A DNA stretch of 64,000 nt from the human T2T-CHM13v2.0 reference genome, Homo sapiens: assembly GCF_009914755.1 (NCBI RefSeq), contig NC_060933.1; one strand, 5' to 3'. Below, one piece after another: positions 33,544 to 38,663 of the stretch. How positions within the stretch are numbered: the first letter of the stretch is position 1; every line of letters begins with the position of its first letter. The translations under genes were made by a program, and so were the position numbers. The notes beneath the pieces are model-generated. The model ran no database searches. It was not told the origin of the DNA and worked only from the letters and a program-made list of their open reading frames with translations.

Positions 33544-33595
33544 CTGATCAAGGTGAGGTTGTGTTCCTGGCACATGCTGAAGTTTTTTCTGCAAA
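33544..33595 (-). pseudogene. ZNG1/CBWD exon 11
   Basis: tag|T TTG CAG... = (S)LQKKLQHVPGTQPHLDQ|gtaaag; 52 bp, phase-2 acceptor. Confidence 0.93.
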
Positions 33596-35327
33596 CTAAA
33601 AACAACTGATTAGAAATTCAGAGATTAATACACTTCTGATTTAACTTTATACGTTATTTAGTGACACAAGGATAATGAAGTGACTTTCCATAACTGACTA
33701 TTCTAATATTCTGTAATTCCAATTTTACAAGTTGTTTGCAAATTCCAATAGAGAAAAGCTGGCAGATTAAGTTTTTTTAAAATTTCTTAAAAAAAACACA
33801 CATTCATATATATACATATGCACAGAATAAAGAGAAAAACTAGTCTTTTAGCAACACTATTTTGTATGGTTAAATATGTCAGTAAATTTCTTTACCATTC
33901 CAACAGGTTTAATACAAACTTAAATATATATATAACCATTCTAGTATTGCTTAGAGTTCCTTAACTTTCTCCTGCTTCCTAATATGAAAATAATGCTGGC
34001 ACCTAAAGAAAGTTGAAAGGATAAATTTTCCTTTATCAATGTTTTCCCTTGAACTTATTAAAAAAGAAATAGTATCCATAAATATAAATTTTCTATATAG
34101 TCAGTTACCAATTGAGAGAAAAAGAAAGTCAGAATGTTAAAAATGCATTGTTCTGATATGAAAAGCACAAGAAGATCAACATGGCATAACAAATTACAAC
34201 CATAATAACTGTAGCATACATTTCAACACTGATGGGGACAGGACGGGAGGGGGAAAGGACTTAAAACCTTGCAGATGCTTTGCCTTGAAAACAGTGAGGG
34301 GTAAATTAGTAACAGCAAGTTTAGGAAAGAGAAAGAACTTGTAGGAACTATTGGAGGGAATGAGTCTCTTTGGGGGGTCCTAGTAGGGAGAATGTCAAAT
34401 TAAATCCTTCCCAACTGGTTGCTCAGGAAAAGATTCTCCTGTTTAGCAGTTAAGCACACACAAAAAAGTCATGCAACGGCCTTCCCTATAGTGGTGAGAT
34501 CACATTAAAAAGCTACTTCAAGTGTCACTAAAGCATTATAACTGCTCTTAAGTGTATGTAGAATGAGATTACTTTAGAAAAACATTTTGAAAAATCATAT
34601 GCTTTTCCCATATGTTCAGTATTTAATGTTGTTGGACAATGACTGCCTAAAACTTCATACGCAGCAAAAAAAAAAAAAAAAAAATCTAACAACGAACATT
34701 TAAGTTTAGTTCCCATAAGTCTCAGAATTTCATGCCCTCGATTTTTTCCCTATCATACACATTTTTAAAAGACTAATCTAGTGGATAAGGATATGCTATC
34801 AAAACCTGAAACTCATGAATCGGAAATCATCTTGCACATTAACTTGTAATCTTATAACAATTTTTGTCTCTGCACACATAAAATGTAAATTCTGCACACA
34901 TAAAATGTAAAAAATCTCAAACAGTTTAGTGTTTTGTATATTTAAATCATTATGTTCTATAACAAACAATAATTTAGGTATTGTCAGTAAGATGGAATTA
35001 GCAACATTTCTATTTCTCCCAAGTAAAAATATAGAATGATATAAAGAACTGGATGCCTTGATGAAAGTACCTGTATTACAGCAAATTATAGCAAAAGACA
35101 GAAGTAGAAAGGAAAAACAAAAATTGATATACTGAATATAGAGGTGGGAAATGATTGCATACTATAATTCTTATTAGTGAAATAAAGCAGTAAAGGATAC
35201 AATATGTAAAGGGAAAAAATAAAATTTCAACTAAAAAATATTCTAGTGTTTAACATATTAAATGACAACCAACTTGTAAGCTCTTGGACCCAACAGAGAT
35301 AAATTAGTTTAAGAAAGGCAAATTTTG

Positions 35328-35952
35328 CTGGGTTCAGTGGCTCAGGCTTATAATCCCAGCACTTTGAGAGGCCAAGTAGGAGAATCACTTGAGGCCAGGA
35401 GTTCAAGATGAGCCTGAGCAACGTAGCGAGAGCCTGTCACTACAAAAAAGTAAAAATAAAAAAATTAGCCAGGCATGGGTGCAAGCCTGTAGTCCCAGCT
35501 ACTCAGGAGGCTGAGATGGGAGGATCACTTGAGTCCAGGAGTTCACGACTGCAGAGAGCCATGATAGCCACTGCATTCCAGCCCAGGTGTCAGAGTGAGA
35601 CTCTGTCTCAATAAAATAAAATAATTAAATAAATATAAAAAAAAGAAAAGGCCAAGTGTGGTGGCTCATGCCTATAATCCCATTACTTTGGGAGGCTGAG
35701 GTGGGCAGATCACTTAAGCCCAGGAGTTTAAGATCAGCTTCGGCAACATGGCAAAACCTCATCTTCTACCAAAATAAAAAATTAGCCAGGCATGGTAGTG
35801 CGTGCCTATAGTCCCAGCTACTCATGAGTCTGAGGTGGGAAGATGGCTTAAGCCCAGGACACAGAGGCTATAGGGAGCTGACATCGCACCACTGCACTCT
35901 AGCCTGGGCAATAGACCCAGACCCTGTCTCCAAGGGGAAGAAAAAAAAAAAG
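35328..35952 (+). mobile_element. Two tandem Alus (AluJ-like)
   Basis: Dimers at about 35328-35640 and 35650-35952. Confidence 0.88.
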
Positions 35953-37179
35953 AAAGGCAAATTTCATGCAGCATTGTTTCATTTGTTCCCCTTGTAAACA
36001 CATTTAAATGTATCACAGGATCTGTAACTATCAAAACTGCCCACAGCATCAAATTAAAAATACAGTTCTAATCCAGACACGGAGGATGAAAGGGATCATG
36101 GCTAACTAGTGAACAGCACTGATAGTCAAATGAAGGGCTGGAACCTTGAAGTAAAAAGAAGAAAAGGATCATCGAGAGGAAAGTTAGGATGGGCTAGACT
36201 TCTGGTTATTTCAGAAATGGGTAGCAAAAGACAAAGGCTCTTAACCTCCCAGAATTAGGTGACAACCTCAGCCAATCTATCTCCCTAGTAAAGCCAGAAA
36301 TAAGATGGGAAAAAAAGACCATTTTTAAATGAACAAACCAAATTTATGCTTAGGGCTGTATTCGCTTAATGGAGGAACAGTTATTTCAAAATTAGTAAAA
36401 CAAAAACTTTATATGAAAAAACATAGTATAATTCTGAATGATTTTCATACAATCATTATCAAGCATAAGTGATACTGGATACCTGAAGCTGACATGAGGG
36501 AAAAAGGCTCAGGGAGATTTCACAACTTTGTACAGCAGTGGCTTGAAAGGTTATAACTATATTTACCATAAAACAAGAAGTAGTCATTTTTACCTTACAC
36601 AATTTATAAGAATTTTTAGAAAAATAGAAATAACTCACATGTAATTCAGGTATACCAAACTTTCCTGCCTTCCTACTAAATGGAACTAGAAAAGCAAAAT
36701 GCTGATTTTTTCCAGGTACTCCAAAAATACCTTTATAATTTTAACTGTAATTTGTTTAGTCTAAAAAGGTACTGCTCCAATACCAGAAGCTACAGGTGAA
36801 AAACATATCTCTCAACTGAAGACAACTTCTTGAATAACTGTGTCACTGACAAGTTTACTCTCTGAGCTTCAGTTTCCAAACTGAGAAGGAGGAATAACTG
36901 CCCTGCCTGTCCCACACTTCTGGCTGCTGAAATAATCTCAATCAATTTCTTTTTTCTTTATTTTTTTTTTTTACAAACTACATGCAAATTTAATTTTTCC
37001 AATTCATAAAGTAAAAGGGGTCCAATAAAACACTATCATGTCCTACCTCACAGGTTACTGTAGGTATTGTTTTCAAAATGTGAACAATACCACAGACTGA
37101 AGGTGGAAAAAAAAACTAGTTGAAAGTATAATTAGTTTTTAAGGGCATGGCTAAGGCAAAATTAGAAATACATATATAA

Positions 37180-37490
37180 GGCTGGGTGTGGTGGCCTACA
37201 CATGTAATCCCAGCACTTTGGGAGGCTGAGGCATGAGGATCACTTGAGCCCAGGAGTTTGAGACCAGCCTAGGCAACATAGCAAGACCCCATGCTTACAG
37301 AAAATTAAAAAAAAATTAGTCAGGCATGGTGACACATGCCTGTGGTCCCAGCTTCTTGGGAGGCTGAGATGGGAGGATCACTTGAGCCCAGGAGGTTGAG
37401 GCTGCAGTAAGCCATGTTTGTGCCACTGCACTCCAGCCTGAGTGACAGAGAACCCCATCTCAAAAAAATAAATAAATAAAAAGAAAAGAA
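37180..37490 (+). mobile_element. Alu (AluJ-like)
   Basis: 'ggctgggtgtggtggcctacacatgtaatcccagcactttgggagg'. Confidence 0.88.
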
Positions 37491-37499
37491 ATATATATA

Positions 37500-38110
37500 G
37501 GAATGGGAATTAGAACTCTCAAATGTAGAGCCACCCACTATGCCTACCCTTAAGCAAAATTGTCCCACCAATTCAAAATACCCAGAGACATGTCCATTTT
37601 CATGATCTTGTATGGACATATACGAGACTTATGAGATATTCATTGCAGCATTATTTGCAATAGCCAAGCTGTGAGAACAAGTTAAATGTCCACTAACAGA
37701 AAAAGGGATAAAGTAAATGTGGTATATGTAGAAAATGGAATATTATTCAGACTTAAAAAGGAAACCTTGCCATATGCAAAAACATGGATGAACCTTGATG
37801 ACTTTATGCTACATGAAATCAACCAGTCACAGAAAGACAAATAATGCATGATTCCACTTGTGTCAGGTAATTAAAATAGTCAACCCCATAGAAAGAGTGT
37901 AGAATGGTGGATGCCAGGGGCTATGAAGACAGGGAAATGGGAAACTGCGATTCAAGGGGTATAAAGCTTCAGTTATAAAGAGTGAAACGTTCCAGAGATC
38001 TGCTGCACATCCTCATGCCTATAGTTAGCAATACTGTATTGTACACTTAAAAAATTGTTAAGAGGGTAGATCTCATGTTAGATGTTCTTACTACAATAAA
38101 AAAAGAAAAA
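37500..38110 (+). mobile_element. L1MB-type 3' end
   Basis: 'aacatggatgaaccttgatgactttatgctacatgaaatcaaccagtcacagaaagacaaata...ttgttaagagggtagatctcatgtta'. Confidence 0.8.
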
Positions 38111-38405
38111 GATACCGATGCACAAGAATAACTAATCTTTCTTCTCTCCCTTACCAAAAAGATTCCCCACAGGAGAAGGCAGAAAACTAATCCATTATTA
38201 AAGTGAAGAGAGGAGAGAGGAGCCAAGATGGCCGAATAGGAACAGCTCCGGTCTACAGCTCCCAGCGTGAGAGATGCAGAAGACAGGCGATTTCTCCATT
38301 TCCATCTGAGGTACCGGGTTCATCTCACTAGGGAGTGCCAGACAGTGGGCGCAGGTCAGTGGGTGCGTGCTCCATCCGCGAGCCGAAGCAGGGCGAGGCA
38401 TTGTC

Positions 38406-38663
38406 TCACTTGGGAAGCACGGGGGTCAGGGAGTTCCCTTTCCTAGTCAAAGAAAGGGGTGACAGACGGCACCTGGAAGATTGGGTCACTCCCACCAGAA
38501 TACTGCGCTTTTCCGACGGGCTTGAAAAACGGCGCACCAGGAGATTGTGTCCCACACCTGGCTCGGAGGGTCCCACGCCCACGGAGTCTCGCTGATTGCT
38601 AGCACAGCAGTCTGCGATCAAACTGCAAGGCGGCAGCGAGGCTGGGGGAGGGGCGCCCGCCAT
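38406..38663 (-). CDS. L1 ORF0 (antisense 5' UTR ORF), 85 aa
   Basis: ATG at 38663: MAGAPPPASLPPCSLIADCCASNQRDSVGVGPSEPGVG..., the primate L1 ORF0 sequence. Expression not shown. Confidence 0.7.
   Translation of the reverse strand: MAGAPPPASLPPCSLIADCCASNQRDSVGVGPSEPGVGHNLLVRRFSSPSEKRSILVGVTQSSRCRLSPLSLTRKGNSLTPVLPK

What the first reader, a model, noticed from the sequence alone, without database searches (positions are those of the whole stretch)
33544..38663. L1 antisense promoter/ORF0 is positioned to splice in frame into downstream ZNG1 exons
Seen: the full-length L1 is antisense to the host, so its 5' UTR antisense direction points down ZNG1 toward exons 11-15 and FOXD4L. ORF0 is open (ATG 38663) with GT donors at +106 (CCA G|GTGTGG, last exonic base 38558, phase 1) and +191 (TCC AG|GTGCCG, last exonic base 38473, phase 2). 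Exon 11, the next exon 4.9 kb away, has a phase-2 acceptor (|T TTG CAG), so SD2-to-exon 11 reads ...VTQSS-S-LQKKLQHVPG in frame. Exon 15 has a phase-1 acceptor, so SD1-to-exon 15 is also in frame and skips both nonsense codons (70 aa). Established: primate L1 5' UTRs have an antisense promoter and ORF0 can fuse to neighbouring exons through these two donors. Inference: here SD2 would give a 96-aa product ending at the exon-12 TAA. In any intact paralog sharing this L1 it would give ORF0 fused to the whole C-terminal (CobW_C) region without the GTPase domain.
Basis: partly seen in the sequence, partly recalled or inferred. Interest (0 to 1): 0.8.

Follow-up and report, generated by a model that had tools for sequence, protein, structure and literature searches.

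The report
L1 antisense promoter inside ZNG1E intron
An old, dead L1 retrotransposon in an intron of a zinc-chaperone gene copy still carries its usual backward-facing promoter and small ORF0, which can splice into the gene's last exons; this is ordinary L1 behaviour already catalogued for this gene family, and the frame match is no more than chance.

Summary
A full-length L1 (38213-44330, + strand, 14-bp target-site duplications) lies antisense in intron 10 of the minus-strand ZNG1E copy. ORF0 starts at 38663, with GT donors after 38558 (phase 1) and 38473 (phase 2). Exon 11 has a phase-2 acceptor and exon 15 a phase-1 acceptor. This copy has in-frame stops in exons 12 and 14, so the predicted products are 96 and 70 aa.

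The frame match is not beyond chance: 2 of 10 donor-acceptor pairs are in frame, against 3.3 expected. ATG, +106 and +191 donors are also present in 3 of 3 unrelated L1s.

All 7 ZNG1 copies in this genome carry the same L1. Five keep exons 11-15 open and would give a 204-aa ORF0-CobW_C product on paper.

Published supplementary tables already list L1PA3-antisense ESTs spliced into CBWD5 and CBWD6, with 5' ends about 25 nt upstream of the ORF0 ATG, and chimeric-read candidates at all seven hg19 copies.

Nothing shows a fusion protein. Those ESTs were not called as carrying a Met-ORF of 100 aa or more, ORF0 evolves without constraint among the copies, and the L1 5' end is heavily methylated except in 2102Ep cells.

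Verdict: a real, ordinary and largely known L1 antisense-promoter locus. Low interest.

The parts
38199..38212 (.). 5' target-site duplication (14 bp)
   Evidence: An identical 14-mer lies at 44331-44344.
38213..44330 (+). Full-length L1 (L1PA3 by the published RepeatMasker label of the hg19 copies), with an A-rich tail. It is antisense to ZNG1E, in intron 10.
   Evidence: 5' UTR of 906 nt, ORF1 open at 39119-40177, ORF2 in two pieces ending in stops at 41485 and 43717. The L1PA3 label comes from Criscione Table S1 and Pinson Table S2.
44331..44344 (.). 3' target-site duplication
38686..38691 (-). Inferred antisense transcription start: L1 nt ~474, about 23-28 nt upstream of the ORF0 ATG.
   Evidence: Inference. 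The 5' ends of ESTs BM739851 and BM756434 minus the hg19 L1PA3 starts give L1 nt 474 at all three alignments. There is no ATG in the leader.
38406..38663 (-). ORF0: 85 codons here plus TGA. The ATG falls at L1 nt 451.
   Evidence: Garza 2023 places the ORF0 start codon at L1 nt ~451.
38552..38560 (-). SD1, CAG|GTGTGG. Last exonic base 38558, phase 1.
   Evidence: U1 duplex energy -7.1 kcal/mol, against -5.5 to -9.1 for the gene's own donors.
38467..38475 (-). SD2, CAG|GTGCCG. Last exonic base 38473, phase 2.
   Evidence: U1 duplex energy -6.8 kcal/mol.
38404..38412 (-). A possible third donor, CAA|GTGAGA. Last exonic base 38410, phase 2 in this copy.
   Evidence: -4.6 kcal/mol. It is in frame with exon 11 in 3 of 7 copies only.
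33544..33595 (-). ZNG1E exon 11, with a phase-2 acceptor. It is the next exon downstream of the L1.
   Evidence: Its acceptor is used by an L1-antisense exon in EST BG202278.
21941..22009 (-). Exon 12, with an in-frame TAA at 21964-21962.
   Evidence: This codon is open in 6 of 7 copies.
21772..21837 (-). Exon 13
20518..20647 (-). Exon 14. It encodes CobW_C positions 35-81 and has an in-frame TGA at 20533-20531.
20024..20130 (-). Coding part of exon 15, with a phase-1 acceptor.

Best explanation
This is a fixed, retrotransposition-dead L1PA3. It landed antisense in intron 10 of the ancestral ZNG1/CBWD gene before the segmental duplications that made the seven human copies.

Like other L1PA elements, it keeps the antisense promoter, the ORF0 start and the two ORF0 donors. 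Where its 5' UTR is demethylated, the antisense promoter fires about 25 nt upstream of the ORF0 ATG. The transcript then runs in the gene's sense direction and splices into exon 11 and onward. In effect it is a weak cryptic alternative promoter that yields low-abundance chimeric RNAs.

In this window's copy, any ORF0 fusion stops in exon 12 (96 aa), 217 nt before the last exon junction, so nonsense-mediated decay is expected. The SD2-exon 11 frame match is a coincidence of intron phase, not an evolved feature.

Shown: the anatomy, the sharing by all copies, and the published spliced ESTs of the closest paralog group. Inferred: that this particular copy fires, which donor is used, and the fate of the RNA.
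For: - Anatomy and frames.
- Same insertion in every copy: 5' junction at 7 of 7 places and 3' junction at 7 of 7. CobW_C exon hits occur in exactly those 7 loci.
- ATG, SD1 and SD2 are kept in 7 of 7 copies and in 3 of 3 unrelated L1s.
- Donor strength falls inside the range of the gene's own donors.
- Criscione 2016 Table S1: ESTs BM739851 and BM756434 (SNU-668) start antisense in L1PA3 and overlap CBWD5 exons. They share one 5' end, which is L1 nt 474 when combined with the L1 coordinates of Pinson 2022 Table S2. Their spans of 18,130 and 18,613 bp put the 3' ends in exon 14 and exon 15 of this window (38688 minus span = 20558 and 20075).
- EST BG202278, printed in Table S3, shows an L1-antisense exon joined to exons 11, 12, 13 and 14.
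- Lanciano 2024 mmc4: the L1 5' end in CBWD5 is 0.28 methylated in 2102Ep and 0.76-0.95 in 10 other lines. CBWD2 is 0.37 in 2102Ep and 0.85-0.99 elsewhere.
- No constraint on ORF0: of 29 variable sites in 191 nt, 23 change the residue, and codon positions are hit 8/13/8.
Against: - The ESTs align equally to three hg19 copies ('multiple alignment', 'not tested', not seen in their PacBio data), so none is assigned to this copy.
- Both ESTs come from one library and share a 5' end, so they may be one observation.
- I did not see their sequences or junctions.
- The CLIFinder read pairs at the seven copies (0-6 reads per sample, LCT_validated FALSE) span the L1 edge in the gene's sense. They could be host pre-mRNA.
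- No exon inside the L1 is listed among the exons of ZNG1E's other RefSeq transcripts (hub table).
- No cap-based start-site data could be consulted.
Confidence: 0.7

Rival explanations
1. A real ORF0-ZNG1 fusion protein. In the five copies with open exons 11-15, antisense transcripts use SD2 (or the third donor) to exon 11. They are translated into a ~204-aa protein made of 63 ORF0 residues plus the CobW_C region, without the GTPase domain. That protein has a function, for example interfering with ZNG1.
For: - It is in frame on paper in 5 of 7 copies.
- The ORF0 ATG is the first AUG of the EST-defined transcript and sits in a strong context.
- The stop would lie in the last exon, so the RNA would not be a target of nonsense-mediated decay.
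- ORF0-exon fusions are an accepted phenomenon, known to me second-hand from passages in reviews.
Against: - BM739851 and BM756434 are absent from Criscione Table S3, which lists Met-ORFs of 100 aa or more. An in-frame join in an intact copy would give at least 156 aa. Caveat: multi-mapping ESTs may have been handled differently, and EST errors are possible.
- The CBWD5 and CBWD6 rows are marked 'no' for 'previously identified in literature'. By the Fig. 1b legend, that cross-reference included the ORF0 fusions.
- ORF0 evolves faster than the introns, and mostly by residue-changing substitutions.
- The frame match is at chance level.
- The promoter is methylated in most cell lines.
Confidence: 0.07
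2. Nothing happens at this copy. Its antisense promoter is silent in all contexts, the ESTs come from sister copies, and the chimeric read pairs are host pre-mRNA. On this view the finding is only sequence geometry.
For: - The ESTs are multi-mapping.
- CLIFinder candidates are unvalidated and correlate with host-gene expression in general.
- Methylation is high in 10 of 11 lines measured for the CBWD5 L1.
- The 5' UTR has lost CpGs (observed/expected 0.40).
Against: - This copy differs from its two nearest sisters by only 0.2-0.8% in the flanking introns, and it has the same donors.
- Methylation is 0.28 in 2102Ep at the locus labelled CBWD5.
- The hub table lists RefSeq 'enhancer' elements at 37921-38447 and 38527-39136, over this 5' UTR. 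I could not check their source.
Confidence: 0.2

Closest known systems
L1 antisense-promoter chimeric transcripts (LCTs; Speek 2001, recalled; catalogued by Criscione 2016 and Pinson 2022)
   Same: - A full-length L1PA element lies opposite to its host gene.
- The transcript starts at about L1 nt 474, within the first 600 nt of the 5' UTR, and is spliced into downstream host exons.
- The locus family itself is in both catalogues: CBWD5 and CBWD6 in Criscione Table S1, and all seven hg19 copies in Pinson Table S2.
   Different: Nothing essential. The evidence is ambiguous as to locus, because seven near-identical copies exist.
ORF0-proximal exon fusions (Denli 2015; paper not held, known here only through citing passages)
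   Same: ORF0 has a strong start context and two internal donors, and one donor is phase-compatible with the next host exon.
   Different: - No junction read, ribosome footprint or peptide was seen.
- This copy's host exons carry two nonsense codons.
- The CBWD genes were apparently not among the 57 reported fusions. That is an indirect reading of the 'no' in the literature column of Criscione Table S1.
LINC01876, an L1PA2 antisense-promoter lncRNA (Garza 2023, passages read)
   Same: A fixed hominoid L1 whose antisense promoter drives a spliced host-side transcript.
   Different: - There the ORF0 start codon is lost in humans and a function was tested.
- Here ORF0 is intact in 7 of 7 copies and no function is known.

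Membership tests
Full-length primate L1 (L1PA) | About 6 kb long, with target-site duplications, an A-rich tail, a ~900-nt 5' UTR, ORF1 and ORF2 | tested here: met
   6118 bp, 14-bp duplications, 906-nt 5' UTR, ORF1 open, ORF2 present but broken by stops. I did not compute the subfamily label L1PA3; it is taken from published tables for the hg19 copies.
ORF0-bearing L1 | An antisense ATG at L1 nt ~451 in a strong context, an open frame of ~70 codons, and two GT donors inside it | tested here: met
   The ATG is at nt 451, with donors at +106 and +191, as in 3 of 3 control L1s. The frame is 85 codons here, against 71 in controls L009 and L010. Garza 2023 gives nt ~451.
L1 antisense-promoter chimeric transcript | A transcript 5' end antisense within the first ~600 nt of the L1 | tested here: inconclusive
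   The published EST 5' ends fall at L1 nt 474, but the ESTs map to three copies alike. No start-site data exist for this copy.
L1 antisense-promoter chimeric transcript | Splicing from the L1 part into an annotated host exon | tested here: inconclusive
   By that pipeline's criteria, Criscione Table S1 lists the ESTs as spliced and overlapping CBWD exons. Only BG202278 was readable. Its L1 exon uses a donor that is GT in 2 of 7 copies and GC in this window.
ORF0-exon fusion protein | A junction from SD1 or SD2 into a host exon, in frame | not testable with these tools
   It is in frame on paper for SD2 to exon 11. No EST sequence of BM739851 or BM756434 and no RNA-seq data were available.
ORF0-exon fusion protein | Evidence of translation | not testable with these tools
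   No Ribo-seq or mass-spectrometry data were at hand.
CobW_C domain (PF07683) downstream of the L1 | A Pfam match above the cut-off in exons 11-15 | tested here: met
   exon 14 scores 32.6 bits against a cut-off of 22, covers profile positions 35-81 and has 1 TGA inside. The same exon is hit in all 7 copies.

The most novel reading that the evidence does not exclude
In cells with demethylated L1s (early embryo, embryonal carcinoma, some tumours), the five intact ZNG1 copies together make a hominid-specific ~204-aa ORF0-CobW_C protein that lacks the GTPase domain. This protein would modulate ZNG1-dependent zinc delivery, or carry ORF0's nuclear localisation onto a CobW_C module. It would be a multi-copy chimeric gene product born from one L1 insertion and amplified by segmental duplication.
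Probability: 0.06. Interest if true: 0.6.

Novelty: already known. Interest (0 to 1): 0.22.

Why it matters
If a stable ORF0-CobW_C protein existed, it would be a clear case of a retrotransposon promoter plus ORF creating a new protein isoform that segmental duplication then multiplied, in a gene family tied to zinc homeostasis.

As the evidence stands, the locus is one more catalogued L1 antisense-promoter site. Its main practical value is as a caution. Frame compatibility between ORF0 donors and a host exon is expected by chance in most same-sense intronic L1s. Reads from this seven-copy family also cannot be assigned to a copy without paralog-diagnostic variants.

Tried and rejected
- Denli 2015, Speek 2001 and Matlik 2006 are not held. 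The original positions of SD1 and SD2 and the list of 57 fusions could therefore not be checked. I used 3 unrelated L1 copies as an internal control instead.
- Earlier findings of this scan were not open.
- Literature searches for a printed ORF0-ZNG1/CBWD link:
  - 'CBWD' + 'L1PA3' found 2 papers, of which 1 was listed. It was irrelevant.
  - 'CBWD' + 'LINE-1' + 'chimeric transcript' found 1 paper, about PRKAR1A-CBWD fusions, also irrelevant.
  - 'CBWD' + 'antisense promoter' found 0 papers.
  - A search requiring any two of six terms found 90 papers, of which 25 were listed. None of those 25 links the two in its main text.
  - Full-text search does not cover supplements. That is where the CBWD rows were found.
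- SD1 to exon 15 was rejected as a likely product. It needs an 18.4-kb splice that skips four exons with good acceptors. BG202278 uses exons 11-14 in order, and BM756434 ends in exon 14 by coordinate arithmetic.
- I considered reading the CLIFinder rows as proof of promoter activity and rejected it. The read pairs have the orientation of host pre-mRNA, and the rows are marked not validated.
- No structure or complex prediction was attempted, because the fusion is a spliced, joined sequence that the tools do not take.
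Full report
**Observation**

Reading the minus strand shows the antisense face of an L1 5' UTR.
- The ATG lies at 38663-38661, with G at -3 and G at +4.
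- The frame stays open for 85 codons, to TGA at 38408-38406.
- GT donors follow base 38558 (CAG|GTGTGG, 106 nt from the ATG, phase 1) and base 38473 (CAG|GTGCCG, 191 nt, phase 2).
- Splicing the annotated ZNG1E exons in silico gives one open frame through exons 5-11. That frame is then broken by TAA at 21964-21962 (exon 12) and TGA at 20533-20531 (exon 14).
- Acceptor phases are 2 for exon 11, 0 for exons 12-14 and 1 for exon 15.

**The element**

- The L1 occupies 38213-44330 on the + strand, between identical 14-bp target-site duplications at 38199-38212 and 44331-44344.
- Its 5' UTR is 906 nt long, and its CpG observed/expected ratio is 0.40.
- ORF1 is open (39119-40177). ORF2 is in two pieces that end in stops at 41485 and 43717, so the element cannot move.
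- It lies in intron 10, with exon 10 at 44681-44737 and exon 11 4.9 kb downstream in the gene's direction.

**Chance**

- Of the ten pairs formed by two donors and five downstream acceptors, two are in frame. One third, or 3.3, is expected.
- With donors in phases 1 and 2, any next exon whose acceptor is not phase 0 fits one of them.
- The ATG, the +106 donor and the +191 donor are found at the same offsets in 3 of 3 unrelated L1 copies picked up by the junction search (L008-L010).
- Garza 2023 places the ORF0 start codon at L1 nt ~451 (passages). Here 38663-38213+1 = 451.
- Passages in reviews confirm that ORF0 has two donors and can fuse to downstream exons. The primary paper is not held.
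- As a rough strength measure, U1-duplex energies are -7.1 kcal/mol for SD1 and -6.8 for SD2. Both fall inside the -5.5 to -9.1 range of this gene's own donors.
- A third candidate donor, CAA|GTGAGA after base 38410, is weaker (-4.6).

**Paralogs**

The window's own genome could be searched.
- The L1 5' junction with its flank occurs full-length at seven places. These are the window, four other chromosome 9 pericentromeric places, chromosome 9 at 0.13 Mb, and chromosome 2 at 113.9 Mb.
- The 3' junction occurs at the same seven places.
- CobW_C (PF07683) matches exactly seven places in the genome, namely exon 14 of each copy.
- So one insertion predates all the duplications.
- After fetching about 22 kb from each of the six other copies, all seven keep the ATG context, SD1 at +106 and SD2 at +191, with no stop before SD2.
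- Exons 11-15 are open in 5 of 7 copies. The two exceptions are this window (two nonsense codons) and the copy at chromosome 9, 80.45 Mb (a 1-nt insertion in exon 11).
- In the five intact copies, SD2 to exon 11 gives 204 aa on paper.
- The cobW P-loop exon (PF02492) of this gene lies beyond the window, upstream of the L1.

**No sign of constraint**

- Across the 191-nt ORF0 head, 29 sites vary among the seven copies.
- Of these, 23 change the residue and 6 are silent. Codon positions are hit 8, 13 and 8 times, and 17 of the sites lie in CpGs.
- Divergence of the window from each other copy is 2.6-7.3% in the ORF0 head, against 0.2-1.8% in the neighbouring introns.
- This is what a decaying CpG-rich promoter looks like, not a conserved coding exon.

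**What is already in print**

Criscione 2016 (BMC Genomics; passages and supplementary Tables S1 and S3 read) lists three relevant ESTs.
- BM756434 and BM739851 come from the gastric line SNU-668. They are listed as starting antisense in an L1PA3 and overlapping CBWD5 exons.
- They align to three hg19 copies and are marked 'multiple alignment', 'not tested', not in PacBio and not previously reported.
- BG202278, from HT1080, is listed for CBWD6.

Pinson 2022 (Hum Mol Genet; Table S2 read in part) lists CLIFinder chimera candidates at all seven hg19 copies.
- The counts are 0-6 reads per sample in 8 gliomas and 3 control brains, with LCT_validated FALSE.
- The table also gives the L1PA3 coordinates.

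Combining the two tables:
- The shared 5' end of BM756434 and BM739851 is L1 nt 474 at each of the three alignments. That corresponds to about window 38686-38691, some 25 nt upstream of the ORF0 ATG.
- There is no AUG in between.
- Their spans of 18,130 and 18,613 bp put the 3' ends at about 20558 (exon 14) and 20075 (exon 15).
- Junction-to-junction lengths in T2T group this window with the copies at 40.67 and 77.01 Mb. That matches the three hg19 copies these ESTs hit.

So antisense-promoter transcripts that include the ORF0 ATG and reach ZNG1 exons exist for this paralog group.

**Evidence against a fusion protein**

- Table S3 of Criscione 2016 lists ESTs with a Met-initiated ORF of 100 aa or more. 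BM756434 and BM739851 are not in it.
- An SD2-exon 11 join in an intact copy would give at least 156 and 188 open codons within those ESTs.
- Their absence fits three scenarios:
  - SD1 to exon 11, which is out of frame (83 aa).
  - An origin in a broken copy such as this one (96 aa).
  - EST errors or different handling of multi-mapping ESTs, which I cannot exclude.
- BG202278 is printed there. It begins in L1 antisense sequence at about L1 nt 1098 and ends its L1 exon at window-equivalent base 39184. It then joins exon 11, followed by exons 12, 13 and 14.
- The ORF called for it starts at a Met in exon 12 (106 aa), with no ORF0 match.
- The donor it uses is GT only in the copies at 80.45 and 42.14 Mb. 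It is GC in this window and in the four remaining copies.

**Regulation**

Lanciano 2024 (Cell Genomics; only rows of supplementary file mmc4 seen, and the file was cut when stored) gives CpG methylation of the L1 5' end.
- The L1PA3 in CBWD5: 0.28 in 2102Ep embryonal carcinoma cells, and 0.76-0.95 in ten other lines.
- CBWD2: 0.37 in 2102Ep, and 0.85-0.99 elsewhere.
- CBWD1: 0.88-0.98 in all twelve lines.

The hub table notes RefSeq 'enhancer' elements over this 5' UTR. It lists no exon inside the L1 among the exons of the other ZNG1E transcripts.

**Conclusion**

- The locus is an ordinary L1PA3 with ordinary antisense-promoter anatomy.
- It probably acts as a weak cryptic promoter in demethylated cells.
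- In this copy, any ORF0 fusion is cut short in exon 12, 217 nt before the last junction. I infer that nonsense-mediated decay would follow.
- The in-frame geometry is at chance level and is not conserved as coding sequence.
- The chimeric transcripts of this gene family are already in two published supplementary tables.
- The one open and mildly interesting point is whether the five intact copies ever make the 204-aa ORF0-CobW_C product. I put that at about 6%.

Noticed in passing
window 21962-21964 and 20531-20533: The ZNG1E model annotated as protein-coding has two in-frame stops in this T2T copy: TAA in exon 12 and TGA in exon 14. The same codons are open in the other six copies. So this copy is a pseudogene in CHM13, or the RefSeq model was laid on the wrong paralog.
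   Followed up: partly
G000:C9 about 80.45 Mb copy (L017-L019), exon 11: Exon 11 is 53 nt long instead of 52, because of a 1-nt insertion. This shifts the frame and stops the natural reading after 15 codons.
   Followed up: partly
window 39184 (minus strand) and equivalents in L017-L022: A CpG-to-TpG change makes a GT donor (GAG|GTGCTC) in the copies at 80.45 and 42.14 Mb only. Published EST BG202278 uses it to join an L1 ORF1/5'UTR-antisense exon to exon 11. This window has GC at that position. The EST's first base follows an AG in a pyrimidine-rich context (window ~39322), so exonization rather than initiation is possible.
   Followed up: partly
window 38406-38663 and paralogs: ORF0 is longer than usual. 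It has 85 codons in 3 copies and 102 in 4, against 71 in two unrelated L1s (L009, L010). The normal stop is read out of frame after SD2.
   Followed up: partly
window 38155 (minus strand): A strong donor-like site, TTG|GTAAGG (U1 duplex -8.5 kcal/mol), lies 58 nt beyond the L1 5' end in the intron flank and after the ORF0 stop. Read-through antisense transcripts could use it without making a fusion.
   Followed up: no
G000:C9 about 77.0 Mb copy: The cobW P-loop exon (PF02492) was found in 6 places, but none lies beside this seventh copy. It may be 5'-truncated.
   Followed up: no
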